64,000 nt of DNA from an uncultured Clostridium sp. (GTDB taxonomy: Bacteria > Bacillota > Clostridia > TANB77 > CAG-508): positions 66,945-130,944 of the forward strand of contig CANAZY010000002.1 in assembly GCA_947365805.1 (NCBI GenBank), in the 5' to 3' direction. Below are positions 860 through 33,405 of the stretch, piece by piece. The position numbers and the translations under genes are program-made. How positions within the stretch are numbered: position 1 is the stretch's first letter; each line of letters begins with the position of its first letter. Below the pieces are notes generated by a model. The model did not search any database. It was not told where the DNA came from and saw only the letters and a list, made by a program, of their open reading frames with translations.

Positions 860-1795
860 GTGAAAAAAACACAATTTAAAAAGCATAATAATAGTGGTAT
901 ATCTCTAATAGCTTTATTACTTATCATTATAATTTTACTAACTTTAGTAGGAATTGCCATTTATCTAACAATTGGTAAAAATCAAACTTTTGAAAAAACG
1001 CAAGAGCCAGAAGGAATATCTACACAAAAAGAATCTAAGCAAACAGAATCAATAGATTCTTCTATATTAAAATTGAAGGTTGGAGATTATATTAATTACG
1101 ATACAGGGGTAAGTACCATTGGAAATAATGGCATAGTAACATTTAGAGTATTATATCCCGCTGATTCAAAATACGGTTTGCAAATTGTATCTGACAAAAA
1201 TATAACTACATTGGTATTGGGTGGTAAAGATTTCGAAACAACTGAAGGCACATTCAACAGTGATTTTGAAACAGCAAAAAACAGTTATAATAATGCGATA
1301 GCATTATTAAATAAAGAAACAGAAAAATATATTAATTCCAATTATGCATATGATTCAAGGTCTATAGGAAGTATTCCCACCACACAAAATGGAAAATTTA
1401 TAAATAAAAATCAAGAAAATGAAGGTCCTGTAACTATGAAGTTCCCTTATAATGGAAGCACCATTATAAGTTGTAAAGGTGATGATATGAATTATACAGA
1501 AGATGAAATTGCGATGAAATCGGGAAATATCTCATCAACAGGGGAAAGTTATTGGATAGCATCCCGTTATGTAGAATCACAACCATCTCGTTGTTATTTT
1601 GCCATACGTTATACAAATTCAGCAGGTGCTATACGTACTTTTACTTTATGCTCTTTAGATTCAAAAAAAGATACACAAAATGGAACTCGTAACAAGTATG
1701 GTATTCGTCCTTGTATCTCTTTAAAATCTGATAGTATAAAGATAATCAGTGGAGATGGAACAAGTGAAAATACTGCATATATTATAGGAAAATAA
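860..1795 (+). CDS. secreted/pilin-like protein with class-III-like N-terminus (NSG|ISLIALLLIIIIL)
   Basis: GTG start after RBS aaaggagga. Short basic leader, Gly, then a ~22 aa hydrophobic segment as in type IV (pseudo)pilins, but no Glu at +5. Remainder has no family I recognise. Confidence 0.4.
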   Translation: MKKTQFKKHNNSGISLIALLLIIIILLTLVGIAIYLTIGKNQTFEKTQEPEGISTQKESKQTESIDSSILKLKVGDYINYDTGVSTIGNNGIVTFRVLYPADSKYGLQIVSDKNITTLVLGGKDFETTEGTFNSDFETAKNSYNNAIALLNKETEKYINSNYAYDSRSIGSIPTTQNGKFINKNQENEGPVTMKFPYNGSTIISCKGDDMNYTEDEIAMKSGNISSTGESYWIASRYVESQPSRCYFAIRYTNSAGAIRTFTLCSLDSKKDTQNGTRNKYGIRPCISLKSDSIKIISGDGTSENTAYIIGK

Positions 1796-2532: not shown

Positions 2533-3003
2533 CTATTCCAATTTTAAATTCTTCATTTCTGAAAGTTTATAATATGTTTGATGATTTGCTTCAAATCCTT
2601 TTACATAAATAATTTCATTTGTATCGTAATTCACAACATAGCCTTCTGAAATTTCAATTTTTTCTAATCCCATTTCATTTAAATCGTTTTGTGATAATAG
2701 GTAATAGTTGTCTTCATCTTCTATAACATGATTCGAAACGAGCTCATCTATTTTTTTATTTCCTACTACTTCTATTAATTTTATTCCTTTATAATTTGAG
2801 GTATCTTTATTAAATTTTGCTTGTTCTGAAATTGTTTTTGTTTTTGCTTGTATTAACATCATATTCGTATTAACATTTTGTAAATTTGCTTGTTTTATCA
2901 TATTATTTCCTACATAAATCCCTACTGACGCAATGATAATCATCACAATAATAGTAATTACTAAGGTTGTTAATGTAACTCCCTTTTCTTCCGTTTTTTT
3001 CAT
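2533..3003 (-). CDS. pilin-like protein (EEKG|VTLTTLVITIIVMIII)
   Basis: Prepilin-like leader, Gly, hydrophobic helix; lacks Glu+5. Lies 8 nt upstream of rnhB. Confidence 0.45.
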   Translation of the reverse strand: MKKTEEKGVTLTTLVITIIVMIIIASVGIYVGNNMIKQANLQNVNTNMMLIQAKTKTISEQAKFNKDTSNYKGIKLIEVVGNKKIDELVSNHVIEDEDNYYLLSQNDLNEMGLEKIEISEGYVVNYDTNEIIYVKGFEANHQTYYKLSEMKNLKLE

Positions 3004-23519: not shown

Positions 23520-24402
23520 TTATAAAATTGTTGCTCCAATCATTCCTGCATCATTTCCTAATTCTGCAAGCTTTATTATTGTTCTTTTGTTTTGAATTGG
23601 TGGCATAATTCTATCTAATTCTTCCTGTAGCTTAGAAAATAAAATATCTTTATAATATACAAAGCTTCCTCCAATCACCAAAACGTCTGCACTACAAATT
23701 CTTGCCATATTTGCAATTCCAATTGCTACAAATCCAATATATCCTTGAAGAATGTCTTCTACTTTGCTTCTATTTTCGGGCTGTTTTAATATTTCTAATA
23801 TTTCTTTACTTGATAAATTTGGATTATCAAAGTATTGTCTTATTTGCGTTTTAAATGCTTTCATAGAAGCATATGTCTCATAACATCCATTTCGCCCACA
23901 ATTACATTTTCGTCCATTTTTTTGGATTATCATATGTCCTGCTCCTCTAATGTCTTCAACTAACTTCCCTTGCAAGAAAACGGCTGTACCAACTCCAGTT
24001 CCTAATCCTAAAAATATTCCATTATGGCATCCTTTTAGTGCTCCATATTCTTTTTCTGCAATTCCAGCACACATTCCATCGTTTTTCGTAAAACAAGGCT
24101 TGTCTATTTTTTCTTTTACTATATTTTCTATATTTACATTGTTAATTTTCAAATTACAAGCATTATCGATATTGCCATTTCGGGGTCTTCCGAGGAACTG
24201 AAATACCTACCATCTCAATATCACCTAAGTTTGTAGATTCTAAAATTACATCCATTTGTTCATAAAGGAATGTTCGAATTGCTAGTTCTAATCCTTGTTT
24301 ATCTTCTTTTGTAAAATTATATTCTCTCTTTTGTACAACTTTTCCTCTTTCTACCAATCCTATTTGGATATGGCTTCCTCCTAAATCAATCCCAATTTTC
24401 AT
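23520..24402 (-). CDS. ROK-family sugar kinase, contiguous only with a +1 shift at in-frame CGG 24192-24190
   Basis: N-terminal part MKIGIDLGGSHIQIG...VGISVP; C-terminal part ...KNDGMCAGIAE...GLGTGVGTA...CNCGRNGCYETYAS. Skipping C24192 gives VGISVP-G-RPRNGNIDNACNLKINN. Start ATG 24402 with RBS gaagggaga. Confidence 0.75.
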
Positions 24403-24433
24403 AATACATCTCCCTTCTTGTCCATCTTTTTTT

Positions 24434-25786
24434 CTAGAAACCATAAGCTGAAAATAAGAAGTTACCCATGTATAATTGTAAACAAGGCACCAATACGACT
24501 AATACAAAGAAGATTAGTACAACACCAACAATACTATATACTAATTGTGGTAATACCATCATAATTTTTTGTATAATATTGTCAATATCAATATCCATAT
24601 ATTCTAATAATTTATCCATCATTTCTGCTAAATCGGTCTTCATTCCAATCTTTAACATCTCTGTAATCATAGAAGATGGTAAGCCAGACTTTTCAAATGG
24701 CTCAATCCAAGATTGTCCGATTAGAATATTATTAATAGATGTTTCAATTAAAGAAAGCATAACGTAATTTTTACTAACATTTTTACTAACTTCTAATGCT
24801 TCTTGAATTCTCATTCCATTGTTCAAATTCAAAAGCATCGCTCTAATCAATCTTGAAAAATCTAAAGAAAAAATTAGCTTTCCAAAGATTGGCATTGTAT
24901 ATTTAAAATAATCAAAATTATATTTTCCTTTTGGAGTACGAATATAAGCAATAATAGCAATCGCAATTCCAACAACTATTGTAGTTGGAAGATACCAATA
25001 AGCAATTGCAAGATTTAAAAAATCTTTAAACCATATCGTAATTGTTGGTAACTGATCGGTTGAGCCTACTGCTTCAAAAACATTTTCAATCGCAGGAATT
25101 GCAAATAAAGTACCAACGATTAACATGATAAGTAATAAAGCGAATTGCGCAATATTTGGTATTAGAATACTTCTAATTTTTTTATTTAAACTAGAAGAAT
25201 CATCTAAATATTTAATTGCCTGTTCTAACGAATTGGTAAGCGAACCAGATAATTCTCCGACTTTTATCATATTAATGTAGATATAGGGAAATATATTAGA
25301 ATAATATTCCATTGTAGTATACATATTTTCTCCTGCTTCTACTCCTGCTAATATATCCTCTATAATACCTCTTAATAAATAATTTTCTGTACTATCAATA
25401 ATCGTTCTTAATGCATGTACATTATTAAAATTTGCCTTTTTTAATAAATAAAAACTTTGTGTAAATATGACAATATCTCTTGATGTTATTTTTTCTGTTT
25501 TCGATAATGCTTGATTAATCTTTTGTATATACGATTGTCTGTTCTTTTCGCGATTTGCCATTAAGTTTGTTGTATTTGCATTTTTAATAATGTCTTCTAC
25601 ATCCTTTATGTTTCTCTTTTTTGTTTTTATTGGCTTTTTCGAAATTGCAATTTGTTCTGTTATATTAATTGGTATTAAATTATTTCTTTTTAATTTTTTT
25701 ATAACAGCACTACGATTGCTTTCTTCAATTCGATTACTAACAACAACACCATTTGGAGTTAATGCACGATATCGATATACTGCCAT
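24434..25786 (-). CDS. pilC: type IV pilus platform protein PilC (GspF family)
   Basis: Two T2SS-F-like repeats, three TM segments, about 450 aa, directly downstream of pilT. Confidence 0.85.
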   Translation of the reverse strand: MAVYRYRALTPNGVVVSNRIEESNRSAVIKKLKRNNLIPINITEQIAISKKPIKTKKRNIKDVEDIIKNANTTNLMANREKNRQSYIQKINQALSKTEKITSRDIVIFTQSFYLLKKANFNNVHALRTIIDSTENYLLRGIIEDILAGVEAGENMYTTMEYYSNIFPYIYINMIKVGELSGSLTNSLEQAIKYLDDSSSLNKKIRSILIPNIAQFALLLIMLIVGTLFAIPAIENVFEAVGSTDQLPTITIWFKDFLNLAIAYWYLPTTIVVGIAIAIIAYIRTPKGKYNFDYFKYTMPIFGKLIFSLDFSRLIRAMLLNLNNGMRIQEALEVSKNVSKNYVMLSLIETSINNILIGQSWIEPFEKSGLPSSMITEMLKIGMKTDLAEMMDKLLEYMDIDIDNIIQKIMMVLPQLVYSIVGVVLIFFVLVVLVPCLQLYMGNFLFSAYGF

Positions 25787-25803
25787 ATAAGAATCTCCTT
25801 CCT

Positions 25804-26904
25804 TTATTTATTTTTCTTTATTCTAAGTTGCATAATCGTTCGGTTTAATGTTTCAATATTTTTTTCCTCTATTTGAGCTTTTGCTTGCTCTAAAGTTATT
25901 TTTTCATCTACGAAAAGTTCTGCAATTGAATTAATTAATCCTATACTTCCTTTTTCTAAATTACTTTGTATCGCATCTTCAATTTCGGATACACTCAGTT
26001 TATCTTTTCTTATTAAACCTGCCACAATATTATCTACTACCATTACTTCTGGTACTAATGCTAGTTTTCCATCTATTCCTTTTAACAATCGTTGCGATAT
26101 AACTAATTTTAATAAAGAGGCAATTAAATATTTGACAGTTTGTTGATCACTAATATCATAAAAGTTAATCATACGGTCAATTGTTTCTGCACATGACTTT
26201 GTATGTAATGTACCAATTACTAAATGACCTGCTTCTGCTGTTTCAATTGCTGCATCCATCGTTTCTTTATCTCGAATTTCTCCTACAACCACAATGTCGC
26301 AATCTTCTCTTAGTGAGTTTTTAACACCATCACTATAAGATAAACAATCCCCTCCAACACCTACTTCTTTTTGTACAATAATGGATTTTTTGGAATGATG
26401 TTTAAATTCAACAGGACTTTCTAATGTTAATATCTTTTTATTTTGTGTTTCATTAATCTCATTAATTAATGCATTTAACGTTGTTGTCTTTCCAGAGTTT
26501 GTCTTTCCAGTTACTAACATTAATCCTTGTGGTTGAAATGTCATACGTCTTACAATATCTGGAACCCCAAGTTCATCAAATTTTGGTAATTCGTTTTTGA
26601 TAATTCTTAATGTAAATAGAGGGATATCTTCAGAAGCAGATATATTTACCCTGAAACGTTTTCCTACATATTCCAAAGAGGTATCTAATTTTTTGGTTTG
26701 TTTATATATATTATCTTTATCAATATTCCCTCTTACTAGGTAATCATATATTTCACTCATATCTTCTGGTGTTAGTTCTTTTGTTTCTTCTACTGGTATC
26801 AAATCTCTTCTAATTCTAAGCATGGGTTTGTTTCCACAAATAAAATGAATATCAGATGCATCTTTTTCAATTGCGTAATCAAATATTTTTTCGATTTGTA
26901 TCAT
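25804..26904 (-). CDS. pilT: twitching-motility (retraction) ATPase PilT
   Basis: Walker A GKTNSGKTTT, DCDIVVVGEIRD, AGHLVIGTLHT. Confidence 0.85.
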   Translation of the reverse strand: MIQIEKIFDYAIEKDASDIHFICGNKPMLRIRRDLIPVEETKELTPEDMSEIYDYLVRGNIDKDNIYKQTKKLDTSLEYVGKRFRVNISASEDIPLFTLRIIKNELPKFDELGVPDIVRRMTFQPQGLMLVTGKTNSGKTTTLNALINEINETQNKKILTLESPVEFKHHSKKSIIVQKEVGVGGDCLSYSDGVKNSLREDCDIVVVGEIRDKETMDAAIETAEAGHLVIGTLHTKSCAETIDRMINFYDISDQQTVKYLIASLLKLVISQRLLKGIDGKLALVPEVMVVDNIVAGLIRKDKLSVSEIEDAIQSNLEKGSIGLINSIAELFVDEKITLEQAKAQIEEKNIETLNRTIMQLRIKKNK

Positions 26905-26926
26905 TTGTATTTTTCCCTCCTATGTA

Positions 26927-28549
26927 CTAAAATATTACTAATTTTTTATTTAATTCTTCTAATGTTGTAATTCCTTCCATTACTTTATAAATTCCATCAA
27001 TTACTAAAGGTTTAAAAGATTGTTTCATAGCACATTCCTTTATTTTTAAAGTAGATGCATCATTAGCAATTAATTCTCTTATCTCATCATCAATATTTAA
27101 AATTTCGAATATTCCAATTCTTCCATAATATCCTGTATGATTACAATATGTACATCCAACAATATCATACGTCATTTTTCCACTAAAGTCAAAGGTTTTA
27201 CCATATTTTTCCCCAATACTATTCATAATTTTTATTTCTTCTTGTGTAAATTCTCTTTGTTTTGCACAATGAGGGCATACTCTTCTTACTAATCTTTGTG
27301 ATACACTTGTAGCAAGAGTACTTGCAATATCATAATTAGAAACACCCATTTTTCGTAATCTTGTAATTACTTCTATACTATCAATTGTATGAATCGTAGA
27401 AAGTACATAATGTCCTGTTTGCCCTGCTTGAAGTGCAATTTCAGCCGTTTCTTTATCACGAATCTCACCTACTAAAATAATATCTGGATCTTGTCTTAAT
27501 ACCGTTCTTAACGAATCAGAAAAACTGGTTTTAGCGTCAATCTCAATTTGATTTAATCCTGGAATTCGAATTTCAACAGGATCTTCAATTGTTGTTACAT
27601 TGATTTCAGGTCTATTTAAATAATCAATAACACTATATAATGTTGTTGTTTTTCCTTCTCCTGTTGGTGCTGCCATAATCGTAATACTATTTCTTTTGTT
27701 AAAACTTTTTTTAACAGTGTCTTCATCTCCTGGAAATCCTAAATCAAATATTCTTTTAATATCTGCATTTTTCTTTAACAATCTTAAAACAAACTTTTCT
27801 CCATATACATTTTTTTGTGAAGAAACACGAATATTATAATCTGGGTATAATAAAATTCTACCATCTTGTGCTTCTTGTTTTTCTTGATGCATATTAGAAA
27901 TTGCTTTTAATCTACCAATTACTTGTGTCTGTTTTTCCTTATCAATATCTCCTGCTGTAAATAATTCACCATCAATACGATAACGAATTTTTAATTCATT
28001 TTCCATTGGCTCAAAATGGATATCACTTGCTCTTTTATCCATCGCTTTTTTAATAACTGTATCAATCAATCCTGTAATATCTGAAAAAGAATTAATTTCA
28101 TTTGTTTTACTTCCTTCTAAAGACTCTAATATTTTCTCAATATTACTATCAAATGTAATATATTTTTCCATAATAAGCCCTTTATTTAACAAAAGTAATC
28201 GGATAGTATCAATAGCTCTTTTATTGGCCGTATCAGAAAAACAAACCTTAACTCTTCCTCCTTCAATATCAAAAGGCACTGCACGATTTCGTCTTAATAC
28301 ATCTAAAGAAATATAATCGTCTAAATTAATTTTTACATCACTTTTTTCTAATAATATCGCTTTTTCCCCTAAAATTTCTCCAATTGCTTGTATTAATCTA
28401 TAAGAATCACATGCCCCTATAATGTTTAATATATCTCCCATCTTTTGAGTTGGGTTGCTTTTTTGATATTCTAACGCTTTCTTTATATCGTTTTCATTAA
28501 TAACGCCTTTTCTTACTAATTCAATTCCAATTGGTTGTCTTTTCTCCAT
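26927..28549 (-). CDS. pilB: type IV pilus assembly ATPase PilB (GspE family)
   Basis: Walker A APTGEGKTTT, DPDIILVGEIRD, TGHYVLSTIHT, tetracysteine CPHC...CTYC. Start at MEKRQPIG (ATG 28549, RBS aaaggagga). Confidence 0.9.
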   Translation of the reverse strand: MEKRQPIGIELVRKGVINENDIKKALEYQKSNPTQKMGDILNIIGACDSYRLIQAIGEILGEKAILLEKSDVKINLDDYISLDVLRRNRAVPFDIEGGRVKVCFSDTANKRAIDTIRLLLLNKGLIMEKYITFDSNIEKILESLEGSKTNEINSFSDITGLIDTVIKKAMDKRASDIHFEPMENELKIRYRIDGELFTAGDIDKEKQTQVIGRLKAISNMHQEKQEAQDGRILLYPDYNIRVSSQKNVYGEKFVLRLLKKNADIKRIFDLGFPGDEDTVKKSFNKRNSITIMAAPTGEGKTTTLYSVIDYLNRPEINVTTIEDPVEIRIPGLNQIEIDAKTSFSDSLRTVLRQDPDIILVGEIRDKETAEIALQAGQTGHYVLSTIHTIDSIEVITRLRKMGVSNYDIASTLATSVSQRLVRRVCPHCAKQREFTQEEIKIMNSIGEKYGKTFDFSGKMTYDIVGCTYCNHTGYYGRIGIFEILNIDDEIRELIANDASTLKIKECAMKQSFKPLVIDGIYKVMEGITTLEELNKKLVIF

Positions 28550-28632
28550 ATCTCTTTCCTCCTTTGTAACTCTTCTTTTATTATACAACAACTTTTTACA
28601 TATGAACACAAAAGTATTCTAATTACCAGAAA

Positions 28633-29061
28633 TTACATAGCTTCCTTCAAAACATATTTTGTTGTTTTGGTATATTCATTATTTTGCCCTATGGTCATTA
28701 ATACTGTAATAACCGTCTTATCATTTATGTTTTCACTTACAAATTGCAAATTTGCAATATTTTCACAAATTTTAATATGATTAAAATAAATATCATGCTC
28801 CTGAAATGTAAATGTATTGCCTGTATGAAAAGAAATAGACGTATCTGTTTGTTGGACAACAAAATTTTGCTTATTGGTTGTTTCTTCCAAAAAATACATA
28901 TGAAATCTCGTTATTTGTGAGAGATTATTGCTACTATTATCTAATTGATTAACATTGGTATAAAAGAAAGATGTAATGGTAGCAATTGTTCCAATTACGA
29001 TTATCATAGCTATTATATAAACTAGAATACTTGTTATGGTTAAACCAGAATTTGATTTCAT
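28633..29061 (-). CDS. minor pilin/pseudopilin-like protein (MKSNSG|LTITSILVYIIAMIIV)
   Basis: Prepilin-like N-terminus without Glu+5; located inside the pilus operon. Confidence 0.5.
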   Translation of the reverse strand: MKSNSGLTITSILVYIIAMIIVIGTIATITSFFYTNVNQLDNSSNNLSQITRFHMYFLEETTNKQNFVVQQTDTSISFHTGNTFTFQEHDIYFNHIKICENIANLQFVSENINDKTVITVLMTIGQNNEYTKTTKYVLKEAM

Positions 29062-29072
29062 GATTCTCTCCT

Positions 29073-29504
29073 TTATTTTGTAATAAGTGTAGAAACTTCA
29101 ATTTTTTCAACTTTTTCTTGTATGGTGTATTCTACTGTTACGTTTAAAATTTTAATTAAATCTACCTTATCTCTATTTCCTTCTATTTCATTATACTTTT
29201 GTAATTGTGTACTTACATTATAACCTTTTGGTATTGTATCATTTTCTTCTAGCTGTTTTACTATTTGTTCTATCTGATTATGGTCAATTTGCTCATATGG
29301 TTTGGTTTTTATTTCTTCGATTACATCAATTATACAATTGGTTGCAATTGCATTTCGATTTTTAGCAGTTGTCGTCATATATAAATTATAAAAAAGGCTT
29401 GTCATTAACCCTACAAAAGTAATCATCACAATTATTCCAATTGCGATATCCATAGTAGTAAAACCTTTATTTTCCTTTATTGTTAATTTATACTTTTTGT
29501 TCAT
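29073..29504 (-). CDS. minor pilin/pseudopilin-like protein (KENKG|FTTMDIAIGIIVMITFVG)
   Basis: Prepilin-like N-terminus with Asp, not Glu, at +5; inside the pilus operon. Confidence 0.5.
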   Translation of the reverse strand: MNKKYKLTIKENKGFTTMDIAIGIIVMITFVGLMTSLFYNLYMTTTAKNRNAIATNCIIDVIEEIKTKPYEQIDHNQIEQIVKQLEENDTIPKGYNVSTQLQKYNEIEGNRDKVDLIKILNVTVEYTIQEKVEKIEVSTLITK

Positions 29505-29513
29505 ATCTCACCT

Positions 29514-30326
29514 TTATTTTATCATATAATTTATTAAAAAATTAGTGCCTATTAGCATTATTATATTAGCAATGCACATATAAAACGCAAGTGGCTTCTT
29601 AGTATTATTGGTATAAACCTTTTGAGAATTATGTGATTTAATATATAATAGCATATTTTCAATTCCCATAATAAGAATACTGAATAATACCGTAAAAATT
29701 GCTACATATTCATTCGTAACAATTAACATATATAAGACCAAAATTGCTATTTGTATGGTGTCATTTGTTTTTAAATCCTTTTGAAAACAAATTGTATCTA
29801 TAAATAGTAAAATAAGCATCATACCTAAATATATCGCATATTTATACACGTTTTTAACATCTAATGTGCATGAATATATGATATATAAAATAGATACCAA
29901 TACCCCATAATATACAACGGACTTTTGCATTGTATTTTTCTCTTTATTAATTCCTGCTATTAAAAATAAACTTGCAAAATAGAGAATTCCTAATCCTAAA
30001 TAAATCATTTTTTCTACTTGCAAGAAGTAAATATCAATTTTTAAAGATAATCCAAATAACACAAAGACAATACCTGTTAATAATTCAAATAAAAAATATC
30101 TTACTCCAATCGGATTGTTACAGTAACGACATTTTCCTTTTAAAAACAAGTAACTTCCTATTGGAATCAAATCTAAGATTCCCAATTTATGATTACAGTT
30201 AGGGCAATAGGAATGTTTATGTGTTATATTTTCCTTTTTAGGTAAACGATATGTAGCAAGAGTAAAAAAACTACCAAAATATATTCCTATTATAAATAAA
30301 ATAATAAATAAAATTGTCTCAACCAT
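29514..30326 (-). CDS. pilD: prepilin peptidase (A24 family, PilD/ComC-like)
   Basis: N-terminal Zn-finger domain CPNC...CRYCNNPIGVRYFLFELLTG, polytopic membrane body. Start at MVETILF (ATG 30326, RBS aaggagaagg). Confidence 0.7.
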   Translation of the reverse strand: MVETILFIILFIIGIYFGSFFTLATYRLPKKENITHKHSYCPNCNHKLGILDLIPIGSYLFLKGKCRYCNNPIGVRYFLFELLTGIVFVLFGLSLKIDIYFLQVEKMIYLGLGILYFASLFLIAGINKEKNTMQKSVVYYGVLVSILYIIYSCTLDVKNVYKYAIYLGMMLILLFIDTICFQKDLKTNDTIQIAILVLYMLIVTNEYVAIFTVLFSILIMGIENMLLYIKSHNSQKVYTNNTKKPLAFYMCIANIIMLIGTNFLINYMIK

Positions 30327-30393
30327 AACCTTCTCCTTATAAATTTTAAATAAATGGCATATACAATTCTTTGCATATGCCATCTAGTATTTT

Positions 30394-30621
30394 TTATTGT
30401 GTTACATTGTATACAATTGCATTTGTGTCATTAAGTAAAGTATTTAACGCATAATCTTCTTTATGAGCAGCATTTACATAGTTTTGACCAGCTTGTTGTG
30501 CCATATTAAAAATACCACGTTCACCTAATGTTAGACTGATTGTAATACCAGCTAAAATTAATAATACAATAATAGTAATAACTAATGCTACTAGTGTAAT
30601 ACCTTTTTGTCCTTTTAACAT
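30394..30621 (-). CDS. short type IV pilin candidate (75 aa; MLKGQKG|ITLVALVITIIVLLILAG)
   Basis: RBS aaggagga. Prepilin leader, Gly, hydrophobic helix, very short C-terminal part. Sits between the pilMNO-like genes and pilD. Confidence 0.6.
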   Translation of the reverse strand: MLKGQKGITLVALVITIIVLLILAGITISLTLGERGIFNMAQQAGQNYVNAAHKEDYALNTLLNDTNAIVYNVTQ

Positions 30622-30683
30622 AAAAAATTCCTCCTTATTATTTTTTTGATTTGTATATATTTATGATATAAATATAACCCTAG

Positions 30684-31082
30684 TTATTTTGTTCCTGTAT
30701 TTGGCAAATAATTACCTTTTTCATCAGGATTCGTTGTATTCGTTTTATTTTCATTTGCATTGGTTTGATTGGTTGTACTTGATGTAACAGTATTGGTAGT
30801 ATCTGCAAATGGGTTTACTTTTCCTTTTTGATAATCTTTTGTTTTTTCGTATATTTTTAAATCATTCCCATTAATTTCACGAATAATTGGCGTCATCATA
30901 TCTTGGGTATCTTCCACTGTTTTTTCCAATTCTTCTTTTATATTATTGGGAGTTTCATATTGTTCTATTTTAGGTACCACTTTATTCATTGGAATATAAT
31001 CATAAAGAAATACTCCCAATACTAATAGGATAGCAAGCACTAACAATAAAACAATTATGATTTCTTTTATCATTGTTTTCAT
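30684..31082 (-). CDS. membrane-anchored protein with Thr/Asn-rich tail (pilus operon)
   Basis: N-terminal TM (IIIVLLLVLAILLVLGVFLY); start/stop overlap with the neighbouring gene. Confidence 0.4.
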   Translation of the reverse strand: MKTMIKEIIIVLLLVLAILLVLGVFLYDYIPMNKVVPKIEQYETPNNIKEELEKTVEDTQDMMTPIIREINGNDLKIYEKTKDYQKGKVNPFADTTNTVTSSTTNQTNANENKTNTTNPDEKGNYLPNTGTK

Positions 31083-31744
31083 TATGAATTACCTCCTTGT
31101 GATGATTGTGCATTCTCTTGCACATCACTGGTATCTGAATTGTTTTTTGTAGTATTGGCTATTTTAATTGAAATATCTTTTACTTTAAAAGTAGCCTGTA
31201 AATTTTCTGTATTTCCTTCAAAAGGTGCAATCTTTGTATTTTCAATTTTAAAGTTTAAAGAAGAATCATTTTCTAATGCTGCTATAAATTCAGAAATAGA
31301 TACATAACTTCCTGTTGCCGAAAAATCTAAATCATATTGATTCGTAACACCAGATGCATTTTGATTTACTTGAAATTTTAATATAATTCCATTTTTAGTG
31401 GCATGATTTCCTATTTTAGTCCACAAATATTCCATTTCATATTGTACTCCCTGTGTTGCTTGCTCAATTTCTTCTTGTGTACTATATAAAATTTTATCAT
31501 TATACTCTTCTTTTGCAATCGTTAATTGCTTCATACTATCATTTAATTCTGTTATTGCTTTAGGTCGATCCACACTTGTTAAATTGCTTACTCTTTGAAG
31601 TTCCATGTCTAATTTATCGCTCTCTTCTTTAATTGCAAAAACCGATAATACTTTTCCCCCTAGAATGTCTAGACCATCAAACATCATGAGATATCCTACA
31701 AAAACTAATATTACAATTAACAATATTATTAGTATCTTTCTCAT
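31082..31744 (-). CDS. PilO-like pilus assembly protein
   Basis: N-terminal TM plus coiled-coil plus globular domain, positioned after the pilM/N-like gene. Assigned by architecture only. Confidence 0.4.
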   Translation of the reverse strand: MRKILIILLIVILVFVGYLMMFDGLDILGGKVLSVFAIKEESDKLDMELQRVSNLTSVDRPKAITELNDSMKQLTIAKEEYNDKILYSTQEEIEQATQGVQYEMEYLWTKIGNHATKNGIILKFQVNQNASGVTNQYDLDFSATGSYVSISEFIAALENDSSLNFKIENTKIAPFEGNTENLQATFKVKDISIKIANTTKNNSDTSDVQENAQSSQGGNS

Positions 31745-31761
31745 ACTTTAAACTTTCTCCT

Positions 31762-33405
31762 TTATTCGATTGGCAATTTTCCTTCAATGACTGTTTTTAT
31801 TAAACCAGTTTGTCCATCTCTTTGTCCACTATCAGATACTACATTTAATAAAATTCCATCTTCTTTTATCTTAGACTTAAAATATCCTAATTGTTCATAA
31901 TTATACGATTGTACATTTATAACAATATTTACCCCAGATGTATTTTCAATAGAAGTAATTTGTATTCCTTTTGGTGATATATACATAATTTGGTTTAAAA
32001 GAGTTGGAATTGCATTTTTTCTTCTATTTTTTTCTTGTGTTTTTGTCGTTAGTTCATCTAATCTTTCTGTCATTGTTACATATTTACTTGTATTAGCACG
32101 TAATTTTGATGTATCTTCATTTACCCTAGCAATTTCAACATTTACTTCATTAATTGCATTAAGAACCTCTTGTTTCTTATTTTGAATTGCTTTATTTAAC
32201 CCAAAACTAATACCACTGTACATTAAAATCAATATAAAAATGCCAATAGCTAGTCTTATTAATGCAACTTCTCCCTTGGTGATTTTTTCACCAAAATCCA
32301 TACTAACATTAAAATGAAAACTTGATTTTTTATTTGTTTTTGAATTTGCTTGCTTTGTTCCAATTTCTTTTGTAAGCCAATCTGGTATTTTATCTTTAAA
32401 TGTTTCTTTCTTAAAATTTATTCCTTTCAAGCCTTCTCCAAGTCCATCTAATGCAAGCGCAATTGCAGAATTAACTTCAATATAATCTTTTATATTAACT
32501 TTGGCTTGAAGCTTATTAATAAAGTATGGTTTCAAAATTTCACATTTAATATCTTTTAAATATTCTTGAAAATAAATATCAATATTATTAACGACAGATG
32601 CTGTACCTGTTATATACACTTTATCAATACGATTTAAGCTTTGATCAATCATCTTTCTAACCCCTGTTACAATGTTATATAACGTAGGCATAATATCATC
32701 TAAATATTCATTTTCTTCGTATTGTAGGTCTCTCCCTTCTTGTGTATAAATCGTAGAATTTTTACATATTTCATATGCTTTAGAATAAGAATTCTCTTTT
32801 GCATTTATCAAAGATAAAATTTGACTTGCTCCCTCATCCATTCCTTGTACATTTACAATTTTTTTATCAATAACTGTAGTGATTGTAGTTTTATCCTCAA
32901 TATTAACAATTAATACGTTTTCCTTTTCCTTATAATCTAACAAATTTCCAATTGTCATTCCAATTGGTGCTTCTGAAACAAGCCTATATCCTTCTAATTG
33001 CTGTTCTTTTTTTGCAATATCTGCTTTACTTGCTGATATGTGTATTGCTTTTACTTTTTCTTTATCCTCTAAATCATTTACTAGAACATATTTTGTTTCA
33101 TAAGCATCCTTATTTACTGCATTATCATAGCAAATTGATTCAAATTCAGTATGGATTACATGTTGCATATCTTTTTTATTTAACAAACTAAACAAATAAA
33201 AATAGTTATATTCTTCATTTGATAGGTTAATACTAATTGGTGTTTTATAACTATAGGTTTCTTCAATTACTTGTTTAATTGCATCATTTAATTTATCGAA
33301 AAACTTAATACCAAAGGAGTCAATTTTAATATTATCATTGTCTTTTGAAACTTTGGCATATTTAATTACATTATTTTCAATATATAATCCCAAACACGTT
33401 GACAT
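31762..33405 (-). CDS. PilM-like actin-fold protein fused to a TM and PilN-like C-terminal region
   Basis: About 370 aa cytoplasmic N-terminal part, TM (VALIRLAIGIFILILMYSGISFGL), coiled-coil and C-terminal domain. First gene of the pilus operon. Confidence 0.55.
   Translation of the reverse strand: MSTCLGLYIENNVIKYAKVSKDNDNIKIDSFGIKFFDKLNDAIKQVIEETYSYKTPISINLSNEEYNYFYLFSLLNKKDMQHVIHTEFESICYDNAVNKDAYETKYVLVNDLEDKEKVKAIHISASKADIAKKEQQLEGYRLVSEAPIGMTIGNLLDYKEKENVLIVNIEDKTTITTVIDKKIVNVQGMDEGASQILSLINAKENSYSKAYEICKNSTIYTQEGRDLQYEENEYLDDIMPTLYNIVTGVRKMIDQSLNRIDKVYITGTASVVNNIDIYFQEYLKDIKCEILKPYFINKLQAKVNIKDYIEVNSAIALALDGLGEGLKGINFKKETFKDKIPDWLTKEIGTKQANSKTNKKSSFHFNVSMDFGEKITKGEVALIRLAIGIFILILMYSGISFGLNKAIQNKKQEVLNAINEVNVEIARVNEDTSKLRANTSKYVTMTERLDELTTKTQEKNRRKNAIPTLLNQIMYISPKGIQITSIENTSGVNIVINVQSYNYEQLGYFKSKIKEDGILLNVVSDSGQRDGQTGLIKTVIEGKLPIE

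What the first reader, a model, noticed from the sequence alone, without database searches (positions are those of the whole stretch)
24434..33405. Complete type IV pilus operon whose pilins all lack the canonical Glu+5
The operon has a standard core: pilM/N fusion, pilO-like, pilin, pilD, two minor pilins, pilB, pilT, pilC.

All three operon pilin-like N-termini deviate from the G|FTLxE rule:
- 30394-30621: KG|ITLVA
- 29073-29504: KG|FTTMD
- 28633-29061: SG|LTITS

Glu+5 is established as important for pilin N-methylation, registry and assembly in classical T4P. The candidate major pilin is only 75 aa (about 68 aa mature), essentially a helix plus a short tail, unusually small for a type IVa pilin. 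PilM and PilN functions appear fused into one 547-aa protein.
Basis: partly seen in the sequence, partly recalled or inferred. Interest (0 to 1): 0.6.

Follow-up and report, generated by a model that had tools for sequence, protein, structure and literature searches.

The report
Glu5-less pilus operon, dead PilD
A complete, conserved pilus gene cluster of an uncultured mouse-gut Clostridia bacterium builds its fibre from a tiny subunit that lacks the acidic residue thought near-universal in bacterial pilins, and its own processing enzyme has lost the protease motifs, making it a natural test of what those features are for.

Summary
The operon is real, at the stated coordinates, on the minus strand. 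Its order is PilM-PilN fusion, PilO-like, an unnoticed 132-aa membrane protein, 75-aa pilin, PilD-like, two minor pilins, PilB, PilT, PilC.

- **Major pilin:** Ala replaces Glu at +5. This is invariant in 28 of 28 aligned homologues, and none of the 150 best representatives is acidic there.
- **Minor pilins:** "All pilins lack an acidic +5" is only partly right. The 143-aa minor pilin has Asp+5 (Asp or Glu in 49 of 52 homologues; Glu in sister families). The 142-aa one has none.
- **PilD is not standard:** it keeps the four-Cys N-domain but has no Peptidase_A24 match, no GxGD motif, and Asn at the first catalytic Asp.
- **Other peptidase:** a stand-alone A24 peptidase with both Asp motifs lies elsewhere in the genome and in 40 of 41 relatives.
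- **Paralogues:** about 20 more genes carry the same leader fused to binding domains.

I found no paper describing this system. Verdict: a new variant of type IV pili, with function inferred and no expression data.

The parts
31762..33405 (-). PilM-PilN fusion, 547 aa: actin-like ATPase domain (1-325), linker, membrane/coiled-coil helix (377-476), small alpha/beta domain (482-543)
   Evidence: No Pfam hit. The AF2 model has pLDDT 82.4. The ten best Foldseek PDB matches are PilM, 5eou_B E 7.5e-18 and 2ych_A TMt 0.75. Atlas clusters carry PilM_2 and PilN.
31082..31744 (-). PilO-like bitopic protein, 220 aa
   Evidence: No Pfam hit. The profile of 24 orthologues has M. xanthus PilO 3jc8_Oa as best PDB match, E 0.011, colinear 71-207 against 64-203. 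Conserved position in all related operons.
30684..31082 (-).
   Evidence: No Pfam or NCBIfam hit. The Atlas finds only unnamed Bacillota clusters. It sits between the PilO-like gene and the pilin in 22 related loci.
30394..30621 (-). Major pilin candidate, 75 aa (68 aa mature if cut after Gly7): leader MLKGQKG, then ITLVALVITIIVLLILAG, with Ala at +5
   Evidence: N_methyl scores 18.1 bits, below the 21.2 cut-off. 3463 homologues. Ala+5 invariant in 28 of 28. Aligned in register to MshA. Strong RBS.
30339..30386 (-). Stem-loop with an A/U-rich tail just after the pilin stop codon: terminator- or attenuator-like
   Evidence: -20.7 kcal/mol, z -4.93, 0 of 200 shuffles fold as well. A strong hairpin at the same place in 15 of 15 related operons, with different stem sequences.
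29514..30326 (-). PilD-like protein, 270 aa (the open frame runs up to 30383): conserved four-Cys N-domain on a degenerate peptidase domain
   Evidence: PF06750 scores 104.6 bits; no PF01478 match. All 120 best homologues carry PF06750 only. No GxGD in 34 of 34; Asn at position 127. Orthologues in family f5 keep GID and GxGD.
29073..29504 (-). Minor pilin, 143 aa, G|FTTMD, with Asp at +5
   Evidence: Acidic +5 in 15 of 15 cross-family orthologues and 49 of 52 homologues. The best PDB profile match is geopilin 9egp, E 0.0083, N-terminus only.
28633..29061 (-). Minor pilin, 142 aa, G|LTITS, with no acidic +5
   Evidence: 0 of 18 orthologues are acidic at +5. Geopilin N-terminus match at E 0.021.
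26927..28549 (-). PilB extension ATPase with an MshEN N-domain (the open frame runs up to 28609)
   Evidence: T2SSE 337 bits, MshEN 34.8 bits. TIGR02538 412 bits, below its 675 cut-off. Orthologues are 538-549 aa.
25804..26904 (-). PilT retraction ATPase, 366 aa
   Evidence: T2SSE 151 bits. TIGR01420 pilT_fam 317.4 bits against a 319.1 cut-off.
24434..25786 (-). PilC platform protein, 450 aa
   Evidence: T2SSF matched in two stretches, 99.6 bits. GspF 167.7 bits, below cut-off.
860..1795 (+). Paralogue outside the operon: 311-aa protein with the same kind of leader (SG|ISLIA)
2533..3003 (-). Paralogue outside the operon: 156-aa pilin-like protein (KG|VTLTT)
   Evidence: no Pfam hit.

Best explanation
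This is the only type IV filament machine of a small-genome (1.67 Mb) uncultured mouse-gut Clostridia bacterium.

It most likely assembles a retractable pilus. The shaft would be made of a 68-residue, mostly helical subunit in which Ala replaces Glu5. One minor pilin that keeps an acidic +5 (Asp here) and one that does not would start or cap the fibre.

The operon's PilD homologue has lost the GxGD motif and, here, the first catalytic Asp. It is therefore probably not the leader peptidase. Its strongly conserved zinc-finger N-domain (the N-methylase domain of PilD) is what selection keeps.

Leader cleavage is probably done by the stand-alone A24 peptidase encoded on another contig.

About 20 further genes with the same leader and helix, fused to carbohydrate-binding or adhesin-like domains, would be processed and displayed by the same machine.

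Shown: gene content, conservation, motif loss, paralogue family. Inferred: cleavage site, which enzyme cuts, methylation, filament formation, display.
For: **One machine only.** The genome has a single PilB/PilT pair and a single PilC.

**Conservation.**
- The gene order is kept in 17 of 80 loci fetched with the pilin profile and in sister families f3, f4 and f5.
- The PilD-like profile matches 41 of 41 related genomes.

**Major pilin.**
- Ala+5 is found in 28 of 28 aligned homologues.
- The 150 best of 30332 representatives have no acidic +5 (A 130, S 11, T, G and V 1 each; 6 missed by my pattern, none acidic).
- A terminator-like hairpin follows the pilin gene here and in 15 of 15 relatives, as expected for a highly expressed major subunit.

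**PilD-like.**
- It has PF06750 only.
- No GxGD in 34 of 34 sequences; position 127 is D in 16, E in 10 and N in 8.
- The N-domain is 68% identical on average, the rest 41%.
- Orthologues in family f5 still have GID and GxGD and pass PF01478 (4 of 4 f5 genomes). The decay is therefore secondary.

**Stand-alone A24 peptidase.**
- It is the only PF01478 match in the genome, at 65.3 bits.
- It is found in 40 of 41 relatives.
- Both Asp motifs are kept in 13 of 13 aligned sequences.

**Paralogues.** Their C-terminal domains include fn3, F5/8 type C, CBM26, GLUG, tail collar and FGE-sulfatase-like.

**Literature.** Glu5 is dispensable for cleavage but needed for homopolymer assembly in studied pili (passages of PMC4471445).
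Against: - There is no expression or protein evidence. No run on record as RNA holds the stretch.
- The cleavage site is assumed from the motif only.
- PilD-like keeps a near-invariant Glu129 (33 of 34) and Asp177 (29 of 34) in its membrane domain. A relocated active site is therefore not excluded.
- The fold match of that domain to the GxGD protease FlaK is only middling: Z 8.6, rmsd 5.2, 149 residues aligned, rank 12.
- Family f5 has Glu5-less pilins together with an intact PilD. The two oddities are thus not mechanistically tied.
- The true major subunit could be one of the other short paralogues elsewhere in the genome.
- The N_methyl score of the pilin is below Pfam's cut-off.
Confidence: 0.6

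Rival explanations
1. PilD-like is still the leader peptidase and uses a relocated catalytic pair, such as Glu129 with Asp177. The stand-alone A24 enzyme would then serve another purpose.
For: Glu129 is kept in 33 of 34 and Asp177 in 29 of 34 sequences, both in the membrane domain. The gene keeps its place next to the pilins in every operon. The membrane domain keeps its length and helices, and FlaK is the longest structural alignment at 149 residues.
Against: There is no PF01478 match, whereas f5 orthologues score about 40 bits. GxGD is absent in 34 of 34. The first Asp varies among D, E, N and, in f4, A. In family f2 the N-domain stands alone as a 117-134 aa ORF. The C-domain is far less conserved than the N-domain.
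Confidence: 0.15
2. The machine acts mainly as a short pseudopilus, a type II secretion-like piston or display device for the many leader-bearing binding proteins, and does not make a long adhesive or motility pilus.
For: Each positive genome holds dozens of leader-bearing paralogues, with up to 52 first-look candidates in a 1.4-Mb genome. There are 19 in this genome with binding-type domains. The shaft subunit is very short, at 68 aa.
Against: PilT is present and conserved in f1, f3 and f4. A hairpin after the pilin gene suggests high subunit output. Relatives carry up to five tandem major pilin genes of 136-173 aa, which is typical of exposed, varying fibres.
Confidence: 0.2
3. The Glu5-less N-terminus is only an uncleaved membrane anchor, the 75-aa protein is not a fibre subunit, and the operon is a decaying relic.
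For: The N_methyl score is below cut-off. The peptidase domain of PilD-like has decayed. There is no RNA evidence.
Against: All ten genes are intact here, and the order is kept across four families. PilD-like is found in 41 of 41 genomes. Contigs of four other runs show only point differences and in-frame insertions, among the differences listed. The in-register match to solved pilins and the conserved Gly at -1 also argue against this reading.
Confidence: 0.05

Closest known systems
Type IVa pili of monoderm Bacillota (Clostridioides difficile, Clostridium perfringens, Streptococcus sanguinis)
   Same: PilB, PilT, PilC, PilM, PilN and PilO-like proteins; pilins with a short basic leader ending in Gly; minor pilins beside the peptidase gene; fused PilM-PilN is common in Bacillota.
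   Different: The major pilin has Ala, not Glu, at +5. Only one minor pilin is acidic at +5. The operon's PilD has no peptidase motifs. A separate A24 peptidase is present. The gene layouts of the named species are recalled, not tested here.
Archaeal type IV pili and archaella (PibD/FlaK-processed)
   Same: [quoted passage not shown] The acting peptidase would lack the methylase domain, as the stand-alone A24 enzyme does here.
   Different: The machine here is bacterial: PilM/N/O, PilB with an MshEN domain, and a PilT retraction ATPase. Gly at -1 and Thr at +2 follow the bacterial motif.
Tad/Flp (type IVc) pili
   Same: Very short, mostly helical pilins, and a peptidase (TadV) without the methylase domain (passage of PMC10191384).
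   Different: Flp pilins keep Glu5 (recalled). Tad systems use TadA/B/C and have no PilT or PilM/N/O. Here a methylase-type domain is kept on a separate, peptidase-dead protein.
Tip minor pilins lacking Glu5 (GspK/PilK/PilX class)
   Same: A pilin without Glu5 inside a type IV filament system. Known filaments are capped by a subunit lacking Glu5 (passage of PMC10191384).
   Different: There the exception is one low-abundance cap. Here the pattern is reversed: the shaft subunit and some 20 paralogues lack it, and one minor pilin keeps it.
Geobacter PilA-N (geopilin domain 1)
   Same: A truncated major pilin of about 60-70 residues. It is among the best PDB profile matches for all three pilins here.
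   Different: Geopilin has Glu5, as the alignment shows (GFTLIEL), and pairs with a separately encoded PilA-C (recalled). No such partner is evident here, since the 132-aa gene also accompanies long pilins in relatives.

Membership tests
Type IV pilin (class III signal peptide) | Short hydrophilic leader ending in Gly | tested here: met
   MLKGQKG|I. Gly7 is invariant in 28 of 28.
Type IV pilin (class III signal peptide) | About 21 mainly hydrophobic residues after the cut site, forming the N-terminal helix | tested here: met
   ITLVALVITIIVLLILAGITISL. It aligns to the MshA and geopilin N-termini.
Type IV pilin (class III signal peptide) | Glu at +5 | tested here: not met
   Ala in 28 of 28. 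None of the 150 best representatives is acidic. The 143-aa minor pilin has Asp; the 142-aa one has Ser.
Type IV pilin (class III signal peptide) | Pfam N_methyl (PF07963) at or above the gathering score | tested here: not met
   18.1 bits against 21.2 for the 75-aa pilin. No hit for the two minor pilins.
Type IV pilin (class III signal peptide) | Cleavage by a prepilin peptidase and assembly into a filament | not testable with these tools
   No proteomic or RNA data are available.
Bifunctional prepilin peptidase PilD (MEROPS A24A) | N-terminal four-Cys (methylase) domain, PF06750 | tested here: met
   104.6 bits. C41, C44, C66 and C69 are invariant in 34 of 34.
Bifunctional prepilin peptidase PilD (MEROPS A24A) | Peptidase_A24 domain, PF01478 | tested here: not met
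   No hit at E up to 0.1. The own-genome search finds only the gene on contig C23. All 120 best homologues lack it.
Bifunctional prepilin peptidase PilD (MEROPS A24A) | Two catalytic Asp residues, the second in GxGD | tested here: not met
   Asn stands at the first site here (D 16, E 10, N 8 of 34). GxGD is absent in 34 of 34 but present in f5 orthologues.
Bifunctional prepilin peptidase PilD (MEROPS A24A) | GxGD-protease membrane fold | tested here: inconclusive
   FlaK 3s0x_B: Z 8.6, rmsd 5.2, 149 residues aligned, rank 12 among helical bundles. Foldseek finds nothing.
PilM (actin-like pilus assembly ATPase) | PilM fold | tested here: met
   The ten best Foldseek matches are all PilM, E 7.5e-18 to 1e-14.
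PilN | Membrane helix, coiled coil and ferredoxin-like domain; PF05137 | tested here: inconclusive
   The architecture fits. There is no Pfam hit. Atlas neighbours carry PilN in 35-65% of members.
PilO | Sequence or profile match to PilO | tested here: inconclusive
   Profile against PDB: 3jc8 PilO, E 0.011. No Pfam hit.
PilT/PilU retraction ATPase (TIGR01420) | Score at or above the curated cut-off | tested here: inconclusive
   317.4 bits against 319.1, with full-length coverage 4-346 of 366.

The most novel reading that the evidence does not exclude
A bacterial PilB/PilT/PilC machine polymerises its shaft without the Glu5 to N-terminus salt bridge, as archaeal filaments do. The single acidic-+5 minor pilin would act as the primer or stop unit. 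The peptidase-dead PilD would have become a dedicated pilin-modifying or sorting factor, uncoupled from cleavage. That factor would let one machine handle dozens of lectin-tipped modular pilins, which may be the main surface-display route of this reduced-genome gut lineage.
Probability: 0.3. Interest if true: 0.8.

Novelty: new variant of a known kind. Interest (0 to 1): 0.62.

Why it matters
Glu5 and the bifunctional PilD are textbook constants of bacterial type IV filaments. The role of N-methylation is still called a mystery (passage of PMC10191384).

Here nature has separated these features:
- a conserved machine whose shaft subunit has no Glu5;
- a methylase-type domain kept on a protein without protease motifs;
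- cleavage presumably handed to a separate enzyme.

Sister families give the intermediate states. Family f5 has Glu5-less pilins with an intact PilD. Family f2 has canonical Glu5 pilins with an N-domain-only gene.

This gives a ready comparative and biochemical system for three questions: what Glu5 does, what methylation does, and whether the two PilD activities depend on each other.

The leader family is also very large, with 30332 representative clusters at 50% identity, and unannotated. It marks a major class of surface proteins in gut Clostridia.

Tried and rejected
- **Complex prediction** of the two minor pilins (alignments A5 and A6): median score 0.31 against the mark of 0.32, so no verdict. 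Five earlier hand-ins met a full queue.
- **Expression:** no RNA holder is listed for the operon. The two runs guessed as RNA are probably DNA and are kept as contigs, so they say nothing on expression.
- **Foldseek, PDB:** nothing for the PilD-like model.
- **Pairwise BLASTP:** PilD-like against the stand-alone A24 peptidase gave nothing meaningful.
- **Profile of PilM-N against PDB sequences:** only coiled-coil noise.
- **NCBIfam:** no family for either peptidase-type protein.
- **Literature:** no paper holds the motif strings GITLIAL, GITLVAL, ITLIALVIT or ITLIALIIT. Searches on major pilins lacking Glu5 and on inactive prepilin peptidases listed nothing by title or abstract on such a system. 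I read none of those papers.
- **Promoter scan:** no more sites than in shuffles (69 against 73.7).
- **Split-pilin idea, rejected:** I considered that the 75-aa pilin is a split pilin whose globular half is the 132-aa gene. That gene also accompanies 136-173 aa pilins in relatives.
- **Class-wide range:** 10 of 300 scored genomes match at E up to 1e-8, all in f1 or f3. This threshold may miss the more divergent f4 and f5 pilins, so it is a floor.


Full report
**What is there**

Between 24434 and 33405, on the minus strand, lie ten tightly packed genes:
- a 547-aa protein
- a 220-aa protein
- a 132-aa protein
- a 75-aa pilin
- a PilD-like protein
- a 143-aa pilin-like protein
- a 142-aa pilin-like protein
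- PilB
- PilT
- PilC

PilB, PilT and PilC match T2SSE, T2SSE and T2SSF at 337, 151 and 99.6 bits. PilT scores 317.4 bits on pilT_fam against a cut-off of 319.1.

The 547-aa protein has no Pfam hit. Its AlphaFold2 model (pLDDT 82.4) has PilM structures as its ten best Foldseek matches, with 5eou_B at E 7.5e-18 and 2ych_A at TMt 0.75. The model continues into a long helix and a small alpha/beta domain, as PilN does. Atlas neighbours carry PilM_2 and PilN.

The 220-aa protein is PilO-like only by a weak profile match (3jc8 PilO, E 0.011).

The window lies in a 1.67-Mb, 29% G+C genome that is 97% complete. This genome has no other PilB/PilT or PilC. Near-identical DNA occurs in mouse-gut metagenomes of 12 studies.

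**The pilins**

The 75-aa protein reads MLKGQKG|ITLVALVITIIVLLILAG.
- It has 3463 homologues of similar length, nearly all of 75 aa among the best 120. These are unnamed, or called FliL or PulG by one source.
- In an alignment of 28, Gly7, Ile8, Thr9, Leu10 and Ala12 (that is, +5) are invariant.
- Its profile's best PDB match is the MshA pilin (E 0.0022). The alignment puts Gly on Gly and Ala on Glu5.
- N_methyl scores 18.1 bits, below the 21.2 cut-off.
- A profile search of 1.84 billion representatives finds 30332 proteins at E up to 0.001 and 18188 at E up to 1e-10.
- Of the best 150, none is acidic at +5: A 130, S 11, and T, G and V 1 each. Six were missed by my pattern; five of these have Ala at -1. 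Their median length is 228 aa, so the module heads many larger proteins.

The 143-aa protein is different. G|FTTMD has Asp at +5.
- Across 15 orthologues from four families the column is Asp 10 and Glu 5.
- Of 52 homologues, 48 have Asp and 1 has Glu. The other 3 did not fit my pattern; two of them are N-terminally cut gene calls.

The 142-aa protein has Ser or Thr at +5, once Ile, in 18 of 18 orthologues.

The usual pattern is all subunits with Glu5 except a cap (PMC10191384 passage). Here it is reversed.

**Major-subunit status**

The pilin has a strong ribosome-binding site. It is followed by a stem-loop at 30351-30386 with an A/U-rich tail: -20.7 kcal/mol, z -4.93, and 0 of 200 shuffles fold as well.

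A strong hairpin with a different stem sequence sits at the same place in 15 of 15 related operons (z -3.5 to -8.0 against mononucleotide shuffles).

The ATG at 30383 lies inside this hairpin. The PilD-like gene therefore most likely starts at 30326, behind its own AAGGAG, giving 270 aa as in orthologues.

**PilD-like**

Only PF06750, the N-terminal domain, matches, at 104.6 bits. PF01478 does not match, and a search of the whole genome with PF01478 finds only a gene on contig C23. All 120 best homologues carry PF06750 alone.

In 34 aligned sequences:
- The invariant residues are concentrated in the N-domain, including the four Cys.
- Mean pairwise identity is 68% in the N-domain against 41% in the rest.
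- No sequence has GxGD.
- The position of the first catalytic Asp is D in 16, E in 10 and N in 8; it is N in the window.
- Glu129 (33 of 34) and Asp177 (29 of 34) are kept, so a moved active site cannot be excluded.

The model (pLDDT 84.8) gives nothing with Foldseek. With VIA-align it gives FlaK at Z 8.6 over 149 residues, rank 12, which is inconclusive.

**Evolutionary series**

The PilD-like profile matches 41 of 41 related genomes in five families of one order. Loci fetched from these genomes show the following states:

| Family | Operon | Major pilins | Acidic minor pilin | Operon PilD |
|---|---|---|---|---|
| f5 | no PilT | Glu5-less (GISLIAL) | Glu5 (G\|YSMIE) | keeps AGIDKE and FGMGDIKY; passes PF01478 in 4 of 4 genomes |
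| f4 | same order as the window | Glu5-less | Glu5 (G\|FVVAE, G\|YTIAE) | no GxGD; Ala at the first Asp site |
| f3 | same order as the window | Glu5-less (Val at +5) | none found | no GxGD; membrane domain too diverged to place the first Asp site |
| f2 | rearranged | canonical KGFTLIELI | not applicable | N-domain-only ORF of 117-134 aa |

Loss of Glu5 therefore came before, and does not depend on, the decay of the peptidase domain.

**The other peptidase**

The C23 gene (250 aa) has PF01478 at 62.7 bits and no N-domain. PF01478 matches 40 of 41 relatives (the one miss is a genome 94% complete). In 13 of 13 aligned sequences from all five families, both Asp motifs are kept.

**Paralogues**

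The genome has 18 N_methyl-like matches, all of the GITL type. A pattern scan found no ORF with Glu at +5.

Nineteen paralogues of 153-599 aa were collected, and 17 leader-bearing proteins were scanned. Their C-termini include fn3, F5/8 type C, CBM26, GLUG, phage tail collar and FGE-sulfatase-like domains. Two more lie in the window, at 860-1795 and 2533-3003.

In an even draw of 300 scored genomes of the class, 10 have the module at E up to 1e-8. All are in f1 or f3, each with 5 to 18 or more scored copies.

**Reading**

Glu5 is dispensable for cleavage, but Glu5 mutants do not form homopolymers (PMC4471445 passage). It pairs with the N-terminal amine of the next subunit (PMC10191384 passage).

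This lineage has evidently solved assembly without it. How it does so is unknown. I infer three steps:
- cleavage by the stand-alone enzyme;
- a retained, non-proteolytic role for PilD-like (methylation or pilin handling);
- priming or capping by the two minor pilins.

None of these steps is shown.

**Prior notes and literature**

I reached these independently before reading it. My work adds:
- the acidic-+5 minor pilin;
- the f5/f2 intermediates;
- the stand-alone peptidase counts;
- the post-pilin hairpin.

I found no paper holding the motif strings. The listings showed no description of such a system. Of the papers cited, I read passages of PMC10191384 and PMC4471445, and saw PMC3584216 only as a listing.

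Noticed in passing
window 860-1795 (+) and 2533-3003 (-): Two more genes with the Glu5-less pilin-type leader (SG|ISLIA, 311 aa; KG|VTLTT, 156 aa) lie far from the operon. They flank an RNase HII-like gene.
   Followed up: partly
window 26927-28609 (-): The PilB N-terminus carries an MshEN domain (34.8 bits) and a sub-threshold c-di-GMP-binding motif match (27.9 bits against 38). This hints at c-di-GMP control of extension.
   Followed up: no
window 30751-30758: Contigs of two other runs carry in-frame insertions of 12 and 6 bases in the Asn/Thr-rich tail of the 132-aa protein. This looks like strain-level length variation.
   Followed up: no
window 23520-24444 (-): The ROK-family kinase just downstream of PilC is read as two ORFs (93 aa, then 210 aa). 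It may be a split or frameshifted gene, or a sequencing error.
   Followed up: no
L120-L122 (family f2 genomes G037, G025, G033): A sister family has canonical KGFTLIELI pilins in tandem and a PilD N-domain-only ORF of 117-134 aa in the pilus operon. Small A24-only ORFs (156-190 aa) lie on other contigs, so this looks like a naturally split PilD.
   Followed up: partly
genome contigs C11:1292-2764 and C31:2476-4029 (outside the window): Two leader-bearing paralogues end in an FGE-sulfatase-like domain. Earlier notes of this scan link that family to diversity-generating retroelements in relatives. I did not look for one here.
   Followed up: no
genome contig C3:78116-78250 (outside the window): A 45-aa ORF holds only the leader and helix of the family and ends at a TAA inside the match. 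It is probably a truncated paralogue.
   Followed up: no
L086:7001-9591; L045:5947-7465: Relatives carry up to five tandem, near-identical major pilin genes of about 155 aa in place of the single 75-aa gene.
   Followed up: partly
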